From: a bacterium
GTDB taxonomy: Bacteria > Patescibacteriota > Patescibacteriia > Magasanikbacterales > GWA2-37-8
Direction: 5' to 3'
NCBI GenBank assembly: GCA_043810165.1
Contig: JBDROJ010000013.1
Coordinates: 1 to 60,419 of the forward strand
Length of the DNA: 60,419 nucleotides
Shown here: piece by piece, positions 34,572-37,500 of the stretch
Layout of the letters: each line of letters begins with the position of its first letter
Numbering within the stretch: position 1 is the stretch's first letter
Position numbers and translations under genes: made by a program
The notes under the pieces: generated by a model
What the model was told of the DNA's origin: nothing
The model's database searches: none
What the model saw: only the letters and a program-made list of their open reading frames with translations

Positions 34572-37500
34572 ATGTCTGATAAATACGATCCAAAAAAAAT
34601 AGAAGAAAAGTGGCAAAAGTATTGGGAAGAGAACAAAAGTTTTGAGGTCGATGAAGATAGTAAAAAAGAAAAGTTTTATTCTTTGATTGAATTTCCTTAT
34701 CCATCTGGAGATGGTTTGCATGTGGGGCACCCTCGTCCGTTTACTGCTATGGATGTGGTTTCGCGTTATAAAAGAATGCAAGGATACAATGTTTTGTATC
34801 CAATTGGCTTTGATGCTTTTGGTTTGCCCACCGAGAATTATGCCATCAAGACTGGTCGACCGCCAGCTGAAGTTACATCCGAAAATATCGCCAATTTTAC
34901 TCGTCAATTAAAGATGTTGGGTTATAGTTTTGATTGGTCGCGTGTGGTTGATACTACTGATCCAGATTATTACAAATGGACGCAGTGGATATTTTTGCAA
35001 TTGTTCAAGCACGGATTGGCTTATAAGAAAAATATGCCCATTAATTGGTGTTTGGATTGTAAAATTGGTTTGGCCAATGAAGAGGTAGTTGATGGCAAGT
35101 GCGAGCGATGTGGCGGAGCCGTTGAAAAGCGAGACAAAGAACAATGGATGTTAGCCATCACTAAGTATGCTGATAAATTATTAGATGGTTTAGACGAAGT
35201 TGACTATATCAAACGTGCCAAAATCCAACAACAAAATTGGGTTGGCCGTTCTGAGGGCGCTTCGGTGGTATTTTCTGTCATTGCGAGCCTGCCTGCCGGA
35301 CAGGCAGGCGTAGCCAAGCAATCTCGTATTAACACTGTCATTGCGAGCGAAGCGAAGCAATCTTGTGAACATACAATAGAAGTTTTCACCACTCGCCCTG
35401 ACACATTGTTCGGTGCTACATACATGGTGGTTTCGCCAGAACATGAATTAATTGAAAAATTTCAAGATCAAATTTCAAATTTTAAGGAAGTTAGTGGATA
35501 TATTGAAAAAGCCAAATTAAAATCAGACCTAGAACGCACAGAACTGCAGAAAGAAAAAACCGGGGTGGAATTAAAAGGTTTAAAAGCTGTTAACCCGGTC
35601 AATGGTGAAGAAATTCCGGTTTGGGTGGCTGATTATGTTTTAATCAGTTATGGCACCGGCGCCATTATGGCTGTGCCAGCTCATGATCAACGTGACTGGG
35701 AGTTTGCCACTAAATATGGAATTGAAATTAGAGAAGTCGTTACTGGTGGAGATATTAAAAAACAAGCATATAGCGGTGAAGGCAAGAATGTCAGTTCCGA
35801 TTTTATTGATGGCCTGGAAACTCAAACTGCCAAAGAAAAAATGATTGAATGGTTGGAAGAAAAAGGTGCGGGCAAAAAGGAGGTCAACTACAAATTACGC
35901 GACTGGGTATTTAGCCGTCAACGTTATTGGGGCGAGCCCATTCCGTTGGTGTATTGTGAGGCTTGTGAAAATAAAAAATACAATTATGTTTTACTGCACG
36001 GGTTTACTGGCCGATCCGATAAGAATTTTTTTCCTAAAATTGTGAAAAAATTAGAGGTGCAGGGCCATACAGTTTATTGTCCGGATTTGCCAAATACCGA
36101 CGAGCCACAAGTTGACGAACAAGTTAAGTGTGTTATGGATAATTGTAAGTTTGACGAGAATACGATTTTGTTGGGTCATAGTTTGGGTGGAGTGGTAGCT
36201 ATGAAGTTGTTGGAAAAATTAAATATTAAATTAAATAAAGTTATTTTGTTGGACTCGTTTATTCAACCAGAGTTTAATGATAAAAAACGTCCGGGAGTTG
36301 TGAAGAGTTGTGATTGGAAATTCGATTTTGAAAAGATAAAAACAAAGACAGAAGAAATTATTATCTTGGCGGATAATACTTTCGTTACCATTCCGAAAAA
36401 CCAGTCATCAGAAATGACTAATTTATTGTCAGCCAATTTACAGTTGGTTAAACCAAACAGCCGTCACTTTGTTGGTGAAAACGAGCCAGAAGTAGAAAGG
36501 GTTTTGCAAATCAACGGCTGGATTCCAGTACCCGAAGATCAACTGCCGGTTGAGCTACCTAAGGTAGAAAAATATGAACCAACCGATACTGGCGAATCGC
36601 CATTGGCGTGCATGACTGATTGGGTAAATACTACTTGCCCGAAGTGTGGTGAGCTAGCCAAGCGTGAAACCGACACAATGCCTAATTGGGCTGGTTCAAG
36701 TTGGTATTTTTTACGCTATTGCGATCCTGATAACAACCAAGAGTTTGCTTCAATGGAAAAATTAAAATACTGGATGCCGGTTGATTGGTATAACGGCGGT
36801 ATGGAACACACAGTTTTGCATTTATTGTATTCTCGTTTTTGGAATTTGTTTTTGTATGATATCGGCGCAGTACCAGACAGAGAACCTTACCAAAAACGAA
36901 CTTCACATGGTATGATTCTAGCTCCAGATGGAGAAAAGATGTCCAAGTCGCGTGGTAATGTAATTAATCCAGATGAAATTGTCGCACAATTCGGTACTGA
37001 TGCTTTTAGGGCATATATTATGTTCATGGGCCCGTTTGATCAGGATGTGGCTTGGGATACCAATGGGTTAGTAGGGGTAAAAAGATTTTTAGATCGAGTT
37101 TGGGCTTTATGGGATAGAATCGATCCTGCCATTGTGAGCGTAGCGAAGCAATCTCGTCTTCAGCCGTTATTGCATCAAACCATTAAAAAAGTAACTCAAG
37201 ATATTGAAAAAATGCATTTTAATACTGCCATTGCCAAAATGATGGAATGGGTGAATGAATTGCATAAGCATGAACATATCTCTAAATTTGAATATTCAAG
37301 TTTAATTAAATTGCTAGCGCCATTTGCCCCACATATGTGTGAAGAATTATGGCAGGTACTTGGCAATAAGACCGATCTGGTGGCTGAAAGTTGGCCCGAA
37401 TATGATGAAAGTAAAATAGTTGAAGATAATTTTACTTTAGCAATACAAATTAATGGTAAATTACGTGATACCTTGGAAGTATCGATTGATATTTCCGAAG

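What the first reader, a model, noticed from the sequence alone, without database searches (positions are those of the whole stretch)
35967..36515. Alpha/beta-hydrolase domain nested inside the zinc knuckle of LeuRS
Bacterial LeuRS normally reads ...RQRYWG-PIP-V-C--CG-VPVPE--LPV-LP... with no gap; I recall this from the T. thermophilus enzyme. Here about 183 residues are inserted between CEAC and G-W-IPVPEDQLPVELP. The insert has the hallmarks of a small serine hydrolase of the YdeN/RBBP9 type: VLLHGFTG, the nucleophile elbow GHSLGG, ILADN and a distal His (RHF). The second Cys pair (CPKCG) follows downstream, so the domain is nested in the ZN-1 module.

It is not repeat-derived and shows no intein-like junctions. 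A hydrolase fused into an aminoacyl-tRNA synthetase could be an extra ester-hydrolysing or proofreading activity, or a moonlighting activity. That is inference.
Basis: partly seen in the sequence, partly recalled or inferred. Interest (0 to 1): 0.7.

Follow-up and report, generated by a model that had tools for sequence, protein, structure and literature searches.

The report
Serine hydrolase nested inside leucyl-tRNA synthetase
A complete small serine-hydrolase enzyme sits in a zinc-binding loop of the enzyme that loads leucine onto tRNA, and related uncultivated bacteria have repeatedly built the same hydrolase into this and a few other essential proteins, which points to an undescribed helper activity or a new kind of passenger domain.

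Summary
Window 35967-36515 encodes 183 residues inserted between CEAC and GWIPVPE of an otherwise intact bacterial-type LeuRS (34551-37613).

The insert is a YdeN/RBBP9-type alpha/beta hydrolase (Pfam E 2e-12; AF2 pLDDT 92; Foldseek TM 0.83 to YdeN). Ser544 and His639 are conserved in 165 and 166 of 166 homologous domains.

Two corrections. The host module is ZN-2, not ZN-1. The canonical acid after strand beta7 is missing; this clade has an invariant Asp568 after beta6, which looks like an acid migration.

It is not an artefact. About 100 LeuRS proteins from independent CPR/Patescibacteria assemblies carry a hydrolase at the same residue. The same cassette also occurs at four or more other LeuRS sites, and in IleRS, UvrA, TsaD and SecA. 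Free-standing homologues lie immediately upstream of leuS in 3 of 11 loci examined, with both bacterial-type and archaeal-type LeuRS.

Domain and host phylogenies are uncoupled, so the cassette has been gained or exchanged repeatedly.

Best reading: an active hydrolase tethered to LeuRS that cleaves alpha-aminoacyl bonds. This is inferred from RBBP9 biochemistry and gene context. The main rival is a functionally unrelated passenger domain in permissive loops of essential proteins. I found no literature describing it.

The parts
34551..37613 (+). leuS, bacterial-type leucyl-tRNA synthetase with nested hydrolase (1020 aa from TTG 34551; the likely real start is ATG 34572, giving 1013 aa = P0011)
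   Evidence: TIGR00396 994 bits against a cut-off of 548. Pfam tRNA-synt_1, the LeuRS editing domain and Anticodon_1 all match. Aligns end to end with T. thermophilus and E. coli LeuRS structures.
35967..36515 (+). Nested YdeN/RBBP9-type alpha/beta-hydrolase domain, aa 473-655
   Evidence: Pfam Abhydrolase_1 E 2.4e-12 and PF06821. AF2 pLDDT 92, pTM 0.90. Foldseek 1UXO TM 0.83, RBBP9 TM 0.78.
35955..35966 (+). First Cys pair of ZN-2 (C469-E-A-C472), immediately before the insert
   Evidence: Aligns to Tth C439/C442. Invariant in 32 of 32 aligned LeuRS. ZN-2 naming and essentiality from PMC4005665.
36636..36647 (+). Second Cys pair of ZN-2 (C696-P-K-C699)
   Evidence: Aligns to the Tth TTCPKCG motif. 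Invariant in alignment A1.
35997..36002 (+). H483-G484, oxyanion-hole HG motif after strand beta1 of the hydrolase
   Evidence: H in 162 of 166 and G in 158 of 166 homologous domains.
36174..36191 (+). Nucleophile elbow G542-H-S544-L-G-G547, with Ser544 at 36180-36182
   Evidence: Ser in 165 of 166 domains. Strand 538-543 followed by helix 545-556 in the AF2 model.
36465..36467 (+). Catalytic His639
   Evidence: His in 166 of 166 domains.
36252..36254 (+). Asp568 after strand beta6, the probable relocated catalytic acid
   Evidence: Invariant in 31 of 31 sequences of the window's clade. Present in 28 of 32 domains that lack the canonical acid, against 10 of 134 that keep it.
36372..36374 (+). 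Asp608 (the ILADN motif), an alternative acid at the end of strand beta7. The canonical acid positions 610/611 are Thr and Phe.
35049..35111 (+). ZN-1 module (C167-x2-C170 ... C184-x2-C187).
35232..35858 (+). CP1 editing domain (aa 228-436), intact, with the TTRPDT motif and the HD(379) motif
   Evidence: PF13603 E 2.7e-58. T285, H378 and D379 are invariant.
35280..35366 (+). In-frame peptide derived from a palindromic repeat (aa 244-272), at the pre-CP1 site where other CPR LeuRS carry the hydrolase
   Evidence: Absent from Tth LeuRS. AF2 pLDDT below 50. Copy of a dispersed repeat family.

Best explanation
The window encodes a functional bacterial-type LeuRS. The tip of its first ZN-2 zinc knuckle carries an independently folding, catalytically competent serine hydrolase of the YdeN/RBBP9 family. 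The triad is Ser544-His639 plus a relocated acid, probably Asp568.

The domain buds from the hairpin between the first Cys pair and the following strand. The four zinc ligands, the synthetic site and the CP1 editing site are left intact.

It is one instance of a hydrolase cassette that CPR bacteria have repeatedly nested into LeuRS, and less often into IleRS. When the hydrolase is free-standing, it is often encoded immediately upstream of leuS.

Most likely it works as a tethered second hydrolytic module that cleaves ester or amide bonds to a free alpha-amino acid with a hydrophobic, Leu-like side chain. That would be either clearance of aberrant aminoacyl esters, or release of Leu from peptides or esters for charging.

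Shown here: fold, family, residue conservation, recurrence and gene linkage. Inferred: the substrate class and the coupling to LeuRS function.
For: Identity and integrity:
- Searches give the family and fold.
- Ser in 165 of 166 domains, His in 166 of 166.
- loss of the canonical acid is compensated by D568.
- HIGH, KMSKS, the CP1 residues and all four ZN-2 cysteines are invariant.
- the insert has pLDDT of about 90 in the full-length model, and flanking strands 466-468 and 657-659 are retained.

Link to LeuRS:
- 74 of the 120 closest LeuRS relatives carry the domain.
- About 100 proteins carry it at the identical ZN-2 position.
- Among 50%-identity cluster representatives with a domain-only score of at least 98 bits, 35 are in LeuRS, 16 are free-standing and 4 are other.
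- Of 25 nested copies in metagenome loci, 20 are in LeuRS and 4 in IleRS.
- Free-standing homologues sit 6-12 nt upstream of leuS in L001 and L117 (archaeal-type LeuRS) and L093 (bacterial-type). In L007 they lie in the same gene string as an archaeal-type leuS, separated from it by YbaK-like and Ham1 genes. That is 3 of 11 loci looked up, binomial P about 4e-6.
- Other neighbours are tRNA-ester hydrolases: a YbaK-like gene (L007) and PTH2 (L092).

Substrate class:
- RBBP9 activates the L-valyl ester valacyclovir (Shenoy 2020, cited in PMC7730578).
Against: - The same cassette is nested in UvrA (L114), TsaD (P0253) and SecA (P0174), which have no link to leucine.
- It occupies at least five different LeuRS sites, including the distant anticodon-binding domain. 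This argues against a fixed geometric coupling to one active site.
- Unrelated domains (NUDIX, HAD, methyltransferase, GNAT, PD-(D/E)XK-like) use the same loops.
- CP1 editing is intact, so there is no obvious need for extra proofreading.
- 8 of the 11 free-standing loci are not next to leuS.
- The canonical catalytic acid is absent in the window's own copy.
- No activity was measured and no inter-domain geometry could be obtained.
Confidence: 0.45

Rival explanations
1. Passenger domain. The hydrolase is an ordinary CPR/DPANN housekeeping esterase whose function has nothing to do with aminoacylation. Its coding segment has been captured repeatedly in permissive surface loops of large, essential, constitutively expressed proteins. 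It persists because it folds autonomously, cannot be lost without precise excision, and spreads between alleles by homologous recombination of the conserved flanks. This is co-expression or selfish persistence, not functional coupling.
For: - Hosts include UvrA, TsaD, SecA and IleRS as well as LeuRS, with nearly identical cassette ends, for example NFVILHGFTGRSDKNFIP in UvrA against NYVLLHGFTGRSDKNFFP here.
- There are at least five sites within LeuRS.
- The same loops hold NUDIX, HAD, methyltransferase and GNAT domains, and in this window in-frame REP-like repeats.
- Domain identity is uncoupled from host identity (r = 0.24). Most host pairs at least 75% identical in the core have domains only 20-30% identical.
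- Free-standing homologues are abundant: 1449 hits.
Against: - Strong bias towards LeuRS/IleRS among hosts.
- Free-standing genes lie immediately upstream of leuS of both bacterial and archaeal type, P about 4e-6.
- There are no terminal repeats or other mobile-element signature at the borders.
- GC3 of the insert equals that of the host gene.
Confidence: 0.33
2. Dedicated aa-tRNA proofreading. The domain deacylates mischarged or otherwise aberrant aminoacyl-tRNA(Leu), in cis or in trans, as a second editing site alongside CP1.
For: - The bond is chemically the same as in valacyclovir, which RBBP9 hydrolyses.
- Most insertion sites (pre-CP1, post-CP1, ZN-2) lie in the catalytic core and editing-hinge part of the sequence.
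- Archaeal homologues share a gene string with a YbaK-like deacylase and LeuRS, or sit next to PTH2.
Against: - The CP1 editing residues are intact.
- No known aa-tRNA deacylase has this fold.
- One copy lies in the anticodon-binding domain, and others in UvrA and SecA.
- The position of the ZN-2 tip relative to the tRNA 3' end could not be determined here.
Confidence: 0.12
3. Catalytically dead structural or regulatory module, for example one that stabilises ZN-2 or mediates protein contacts.
For: The canonical acid is missing in the window's copy, where positions 610 and 611 are Thr and Phe.
Against: - Ser, His and the HG oxyanion motif are essentially invariant across 166 domains.
- Loss of the canonical acid is matched by an invariant D568.
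- Insert-free close relatives show that ZN-2 needs no such module.
Confidence: 0.05
4. Assembly chimera, or an intein-like element that is removed after translation.
For: None beyond the unusual architecture.
Against: - There is a single uninterrupted ORF.
- The same junction occurs in about 100 proteins from NCBI, JGI, ENA and Logan assemblies.
- There are no Hint/intein Pfam hits.
- The junction residues are E473 and ...IN|G656, not Cys/Ser/Thr and HN|Cys/Ser/Thr.
Confidence: 0.01

Closest known systems
B. subtilis YdeN (PDB 1UXO) and Pfam PF06821 Ser_hydrolase
   Same: Minimal alpha/beta-hydrolase of about 180 aa without a lid. HG oxyanion motif, G-H-S-x-G elbow and C-terminal His. Best sequence and fold match.
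   Different: YdeN is a free-standing protein and keeps the canonical Asp after beta7. Here the domain is nested in LeuRS and the acid has apparently moved to after beta6 (D568). Identity is 23% over the Foldseek structural alignment.
Human RBBP9 (PDB 2QS9, 7OEX, 9FCR)
   Same: Same fold (TM 0.78). The only family member with a defined chemistry: a serine aminopeptidase and aminoacyl esterase acting on hydrophobic amino acids with a free alpha-amine (PMC8866121; valacyclovir activation).
   Different: About 18% identity. The residues that bind the alpha-amine in RBBP9 (Glu108, Ser76, Tyr99) cannot be mapped reliably onto this domain. RBBP9 is free-standing and eukaryotic.
CP1 editing domain of LeuRS/IleRS/ValRS
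   Same: A hydrolytic domain inserted into the Rossmann-fold catalytic core of a class Ia synthetase. Precedent for a nested hydrolase that cleaves aminoacyl esters.
   Different: Unrelated fold and catalytic mechanism (no serine nucleophile). CP1 is universal and ancient, whereas this cassette is lineage-specific, variable in position and exchangeable.
Synthetases with extra enzyme domains, e.g. NCBIfam NF040702 'isoleucine--tRNA ligase, N-acetyltransferase domain-containing'
   Same: A bacterial class Ia synthetase carrying an unrelated small enzyme domain. This shows such architectures are catalogued.
   Different: Different domain (GNAT). No NCBIfam model exists for LeuRS with an alpha/beta hydrolase, and no paper on it was found.
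Inteins
   Same: Autonomous protein modules found inside highly conserved motifs of essential genes, with a patchy distribution uncoupled from the host phylogeny.
   Different: No Hint domain, no splice-junction residues and no homing endonuclease. The domain stays in the mature protein.

Membership tests
Bacterial-type leucyl-tRNA synthetase (TIGR00396 leuS_bact) | Whole-protein score above the curated cut-off | tested here: met
   994 bits against a cut-off of 548.4, in two stretches split by the insert.
Bacterial-type leucyl-tRNA synthetase (TIGR00396 leuS_bact) | HIGH and KMSKS class I signature motifs | tested here: met
   H57-V-G-H60 and K796-M-S-K-S800 are invariant in 32 aligned sequences.
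Bacterial-type leucyl-tRNA synthetase (TIGR00396 leuS_bact) | CP1 editing domain inserted after ZN-1, with the threonine-rich TTRPDT motif and the conserved Asp | tested here: met
   PF13603 E 2.7e-58 over aa 228-436. T280-T285 and H378-D379 are conserved.
Bacterial-type leucyl-tRNA synthetase (TIGR00396 leuS_bact) | ZN-2 module with four Cys ligands (bacterial and mitochondrial LeuRS only) | tested here: met
   C469, C472, C696 and C699 align to Tth C439, C442, C484 and C487 and are invariant. Naming from PMC4005665. Zinc binding itself is not testable here.
Bacterial-type leucyl-tRNA synthetase (TIGR00396 leuS_bact) | Leucine-specific domain (present in T. thermophilus and E. coli) | tested here: not met
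   Query 793-796 spans Tth 581-637, so the domain is absent. It is also absent in the insert-free CPR relatives of about 800-845 aa. It is not universal among bacterial LeuRS, so this does not exclude membership.
YdeN/RBBP9 serine hydrolases (Pfam PF06821) | Pfam score at or above the gathering threshold | tested here: met
   The insert alone scores 22.9 bits against 22.0, which is marginal. Within the full protein it scores 21.4. Most homologues list PF06821 in their precomputed annotation.
YdeN/RBBP9 serine hydrolases (Pfam PF06821) | Lid-less minimal alpha/beta-hydrolase fold of about 180 aa | tested here: met
   AF2 pLDDT 92. Foldseek top hits are 1UXO (TM 0.83/0.81) and RBBP9 (TM 0.78), ahead of all larger hydrolases.
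YdeN/RBBP9 serine hydrolases (Pfam PF06821) | Nucleophile Ser in G-H-S-x-G, catalytic His near the C-terminus, HG oxyanion motif | tested here: met
   S544 in 165 of 166 domains, H639 in 166 of 166, H483 in 162 and G484 in 158.
YdeN/RBBP9 serine hydrolases (Pfam PF06821) | Catalytic Asp in the 'D-D-P' turn after strand beta7 (RBBP9 D138) | tested here: not met
   The window has T610/F611 there. It has D608 at the end of the strand and a clade-invariant D568 after beta6. This is a variant triad, not the canonical one.
YdeN/RBBP9 serine hydrolases (Pfam PF06821) | Serine-dependent hydrolytic activity | not testable with these tools
   Needs recombinant protein.
Inteins | Hint domain and splice-junction residues (Cys/Ser at +1 of the intein, His-Asn then Cys/Ser/Thr at the C-junction) | tested here: not met
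   No Hint/intein Pfam hits. The junctions read C472|E473 and N655|G656.
Known aa-tRNA trans-editing factors (YbaK/ProX PF04073, AlaX, DTD) | Homology to one of those folds | tested here: not met
   Only alpha/beta-hydrolase families match. A functional analogy is not excluded by this.

The most novel reading that the evidence does not exclude
The hydrolase is a new kind of exchangeable enzyme cassette. It occupies the intein-like niche of conserved motifs in essential genes (LeuRS, IleRS, UvrA, TsaD, SecA) without splicing. It spreads between alleles and lineages by recombination of conserved flanks. In class Ia synthetases it supplies a second aminoacyl hydrolase with a serine nucleophile, for quality control or leucine salvage in organisms with minimal metabolism.
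Probability: 0.22. Interest if true: 0.85.

Novelty: new variant of a known kind. Interest (0 to 1): 0.68.

Why it matters
Aminoacyl-tRNA synthetases are among the most conserved enzymes. Apart from the ancient CP1 editing domain, whole enzymes nested inside their catalytic core are rare.

Here a complete serine hydrolase has been nested in LeuRS again and again, at the same residue by divergent hydrolase lineages and at several other sites. It comes from a family whose one characterised member cleaves bonds to free hydrophobic amino acids. Its free-standing gene is also linked to leuS in both CPR bacteria and DPANN archaea.

If the domain acts on aminoacyl esters or leucyl peptides, that would be a previously unknown layer of translational quality control or amino-acid salvage in ultra-small symbionts. 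If it is a passenger, it shows how streamlined genomes pack enzymes into essential scaffolds and exchange them. Either way it gives a testable handle on the unknown function of the YdeN family. It also matters for annotation: several of these proteins are named 'alpha/beta fold hydrolase' rather than LeuRS.

Tried and rejected
- Mobile-element signature: no meaningful direct or inverted repeats flank 35967/36515.
- Recent foreign origin: GC3 is 0.361 in the insert against 0.348 in the rest of the gene (range 0.29-0.43). The lower total GC reflects amino-acid composition.
- Intein: no Hint hits and no splice residues.
- Assembly artefact: rejected by recurrence in independent assemblies.
- Second hydrolase copy in the window: none.
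- Unbiased host census with a free-standing profile (A3): the best 120 hits were almost all free-standing proteins of about 180 aa, so it could not tally hosts.
- Metagenome scan with alignment A2 failed because no stretch was conserved enough. It was repeated with A4. Its two search patterns favour the window-type subfamily and recovered pre-CP1 rather than ZN-2 insertions, so those proportions are not a census.
- Position of ZN-2 in 3D relative to tRNA: Cusack 2000 and Palencia 2012 are not held, and a text search for 'ZN2 domain' found nothing. AF2 coordinates and PAE are not exposed, so inter-domain geometry and Asp-His distances could not be measured.
- Mapping the RBBP9 alpha-amine-binding residues: the loop alignment is unreliable.
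- The neighbour-joining trees are low-resolution. Only the gross uncoupling of domain and host identity is used.
- Literature searches for this architecture found nothing.
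Full report
**1. The observation**

The ORF 34551-37613 (+) encodes a 1020-aa protein. The first ATG is at 34572, giving 1013 aa, which is the database copy P0011. It scores 994 bits on NCBIfam leuS_bact against a cut-off of 548. It has the Pfam class I catalytic domain, the LeuRS editing domain and the anticodon-binding domain.

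CEAC is aa 469-472 and GWIPVPE begins at aa 656. The 183 residues between them are nt 35967-36515, exactly as reported.

In the alignment to T. thermophilus LeuRS (1H3N), query residue 472 pairs with Tth C442 and query 656 with Tth G443. The insert therefore lies between residues that are adjacent in the reference enzyme, and nothing is displaced. Close relatives without an insert read CEKC-x-GW[IV]P[LI]PE.

**2. What the insert is**

- On its own the insert matches Pfam Abhydrolase_1 (E 2.4e-12) and PF06821 Ser_hydrolase (22.9 bits, cut-off 22).
- The best PDB sequence match is B. subtilis YdeN (1UXO, E 5.7e-8), followed by RBBP9.
- AlphaFold2 models the domain with pLDDT 92 and pTM 0.90. In the full-length model its pLDDT is about 90.
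- Foldseek ranks YdeN first (TM 0.83) and then the RBBP9 structures (TM 0.78), ahead of all larger hydrolases.

**3. Two corrections**

*The zinc module.* The interrupted Cys cluster is C469/C472...C696/C699, which aligns to Tth C439/C442...C484/C487. This is ZN-2, the module found only in bacterial and mitochondrial LeuRS. Cys-to-Ala mutants of ZN-2 abolish aminoacylation in a haloarchaeal bacterial-type LeuRS (PMC4005665). ZN-1 is C167...C187. All four ZN-2 cysteines, HIGH, KMSKS and the CP1 residues are invariant in 32 aligned relatives. The AF2 model keeps the strands flanking the insertion, 466-468 and 657-659. The host enzyme looks fully functional.

*The catalytic acid.* In an alignment of 166 homologous domains, Ser544 is present in 165, His639 in 166, and the HG oxyanion motif in 162 and 158. 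The canonical acid is the 'DDP' turn after strand beta7, corresponding to RBBP9 D138. In the window it is Thr610/Phe611.

The window's clade instead has an invariant Asp568 directly after strand beta6 (31 of 31), together with Asp608. Across the family, 28 of 32 domains that lack the canonical acid have D568, against 10 of 134 that keep it. This is the pattern expected for migration of the catalytic acid under continued selection for activity.

**4. It is not unique and not an artefact**

- Of the 120 closest LeuRS relatives, 74 carry the hydrolase. These come from Magasanikbacteria, Falkowbacteria, Uhrbacteria, Moranbacteria and other Patescibacteria.
- In about 100 proteins from NCBI, JGI, ENA and Logan assemblies the domain begins 18-22 residues after SRQRYWG, which is the same knuckle.
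- Roughly a third of these relatives also list a NUDIX domain. About a dozen list a HAD domain, and single cases a methyltransferase or a PD-(D/E)XK-like domain. These sit at a site after CP1 or at the entry to CP1.
- JGI already labels some as 'leucyl-tRNA synthetase/predicted alpha/beta hydrolase family esterase'. Six literature searches found no paper describing the architecture.

**5. The same hydrolase at other sites and in other hosts**

An exhaustive HMMER search and motif mapping found the domain at several LeuRS positions:

| LeuRS site | Cases |
|---|---|
| ZN-2 knuckle | about 100 |
| Between NWIGKSEG and TTRPDT (pre-CP1) | about 30-40; P0199 has two tandem copies |
| After CP1 | 5-7; P0103 and P0128 carry this plus a ZN-2 copy |
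| Near aa 215 | P0187; also L104 |
| Anticodon-binding domain | P0163 |

It is also nested in TsaD (P0253) and SecA (P0174). A metagenome scan found it in IleRS in four loci, one of them with NUDIX plus two hydrolase copies, and in UvrA (L114). The cassette ends are nearly identical across hosts, for example NFVILHGFTGRSDKNFIP...HFTGEKE in UvrA.

The host distribution is nevertheless skewed:

- Among 50%-identity cluster representatives whose domain alone scores at least 98 bits against the window insert, 35 are in LeuRS, 16 are free-standing and 4 are other.
- Among 25 nested copies in the metagenome loci, 20 are in LeuRS, 4 in IleRS and 1 in UvrA.

**6. Free-standing relatives and their neighbours**

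The family is common as a protein of about 180 aa in CPR bacteria and DPANN archaea, with 1449 hits at E of 1e-10 or better. Eleven loci were examined:

| Context | Loci |
|---|---|
| Immediately upstream of leuS or in its gene string (3 of 11) | L001: archaeal-type LeuRS, 12-nt gap, NUDIX gene divergent upstream. L007: hydrolase-hydrolase-YbaK-like-Ham1-archaeal LeuRS. L093: MetRS-TatD-hydrolase-[6 nt]-insert-free bacterial LeuRS-Sua5 |
| Next to PTH2 | L092 |
| Next to SmpB and RNase P protein | L094 |
| Next to SecA | L009 |
| With a PHP-domain gene | L008, L091 |
| With Exo_endo_phos or Peptidase_S51 genes | L004, L097 |
| None of these | L096 |

Three immediate leuS neighbours in eleven has a binomial P of about 4e-6 for a genome of about 700 genes. 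The metagenome scan added L117 (hydrolase directly upstream of an archaeal LeuRS), L106 (one gene away from a bacterial LeuRS) and L100 (a free copy upstream of a LeuRS that also has a nested copy).

**7. Evolutionary dynamics**

- LeuRS cores 72-79% identical to the window's carry one of four states at the same residue: the window-type hydrolase, a 203-aa hydrolase of a different sub-lineage (GHSMGGH...FGENDP), a third type, or nothing.
- Over 3081 pairs of ZN-2 hosts, domain identity correlates poorly with core identity (r = 0.24). Most pairs at least 75% identical in the core have domains only 20-30% identical.
- In a neighbour-joining tree of the domains, free-standing and nested copies from different sites interleave.
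- The cassette has therefore been gained, replaced or recombined repeatedly. A single ancient insertion does not explain this.
- There are no flanking repeats. GC3 matches the host gene.

**8. How it most likely works**

*Shown:*
- An autonomous, well-folded hydrolase domain with conserved catalytic Ser and His and a compensated acid.
- It buds from the ZN-2 hairpin tip of an intact LeuRS.
- It is recurrently associated with LeuRS, by nesting and by gene adjacency.

*From the literature on the family:*
- RBBP9 is a serine aminopeptidase that needs a free alpha-amine.
- It forms acyl-enzymes with Leu/Ile, Met, Phe, Tyr and Trp.
- It activates the L-valyl ester valacyclovir (Shenoy 2020, cited in PMC7730578).

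*Inference:* the nested domain cleaves alpha-aminoacyl bonds of Leu-like residues. One possibility is removal of aberrant aminoacyl esters; the neighbouring genes for YbaK-like and PTH2 enzymes point that way. The other is release of leucine from peptides or esters for charging in organisms that cannot make amino acids; the Peptidase_S51 neighbours point that way. Tethering gives co-expression and proximity.

The multiplicity of insertion sites argues against precise channelling to one active site. I put this explanation at about 0.45.

**9. Rivals**

- *Passenger domain (about 0.33).* Supported by the UvrA, SecA and TsaD hosts, by the other enzyme domains and REP-like repeats that use the same loops, and by the uncoupled phylogenies. 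It does not explain the LeuRS/IleRS bias or the leuS adjacency of free-standing genes in two domains of life.
- *Dedicated second aa-tRNA editing site (about 0.12).* Possible, but CP1 is intact and the geometry is unknown.
- *Dead structural module, chimera or intein.* Effectively excluded.

**10. Novelty and verdict**

The architecture exists in public databases, but I found no description of it. It is a new variant of a known kind: a synthetase with an accessory hydrolytic domain. Its unusual features are:
- the same enzyme nested at several sites;
- divergent lineages at an identical residue;
- a relocated catalytic acid;
- linkage to LeuRS across bacterial-type and archaeal-type enzymes.

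Interest is 0.68.

Noticed in passing
window 35264-35369 and 37127-37160 (inside leuS); 38184-38287 and 38781-38866 (inside comEC); intergenic copies at 5863-6041, 10507-10652, 11944-12036, 19636-19794, 22979-23091, 29811-29947, 50792-50908: A dispersed palindromic REP/MITE-like repeat (TGTCATTGCGAGCG[A/T]AGCGAAGCAATCTCGT and its complement) has at least 12 copies. Four lie in-frame inside essential genes and give peptides such as IASEAKQS. The LeuRS copy at aa 244-272 is predicted disordered. The two LeuRS copies sit at the pre-CP1 and anticodon-binding-domain sites, where other CPR LeuRS carry the hydrolase.
   Followed up: partly
window 17360-17434 and 19063-19137 (- strand): Two tRNA-like genes, 86% identical, with an encoded CCA end and an 8-nt anticodon loop. 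ARAGORN reports the anticodon as 'tacc' with no isotype. They lie inside a tandem duplication of about 1.7 kb. The only Rfam hit is Tymo_tRNA-like at 40.7 bits against a threshold of 40.
   Followed up: partly
L113:4837-9435, L115:2239-5892, L112, L121 (IleRS); L114:4867-8142 (UvrA); P0253 (TsaD); P0174 (SecA): The same hydrolase cassette is nested in other essential proteins. One IleRS carries a NUDIX domain plus two hydrolase copies.
   Followed up: partly
P0012, P0034, P0035, P0045, P0072, P0143, P0160, P0207 (relatives of the window LeuRS): CPR LeuRS relatives carry further nested domains. NUDIX, HAD or methyltransferase sit after CP1. PD-(D/E)XK-like (PF13366) or GNAT sit before CP1. P0143 has a HAD domain inside the second ZN-2 knuckle. 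P0160 has an unidentified insert of about 150 aa at the ZN-2 site.
   Followed up: partly
L007:6001-10882: A Pacearchaeota gene string: two tandem YdeN-like hydrolases, a YbaK-like deacylase (PF04073), a Ham1-like NTP pyrophosphatase and an archaeal-type LeuRS, all on one strand with overlapping or abutting ends.
   Followed up: partly
window 32504-33424 and 33736-34557: Two hypothetical ORFs (306 and 273 aa) directly upstream of leuS have no Pfam match. They share the short motif [EY]LxRPRSxxxxK[FY] (ELRRPRSLQSEKF and YLNRPRSKKRDKY in the translations), so they may be paralogues; they were not aligned to each other. The second overlaps the TTG start of the leuS ORF.
   Followed up: no
window 37648-39207 and 39096-40028: comEC appears as two overlapping ORFs in different frames: DUF4131 plus the Competence domain, then the metallo-beta-lactamase domain. 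The overlap lies close to the in-frame repeat copies. This could be a frameshift, a genuine split or a sequencing error.
   Followed up: no
window 27214-27692 (within ORF 25689-28781, - strand): Two blocks with 12-nt periodicity, (GTNGGN)n. They encode a low-complexity repeat in a 1030-aa beta-helix protein.
   Followed up: no
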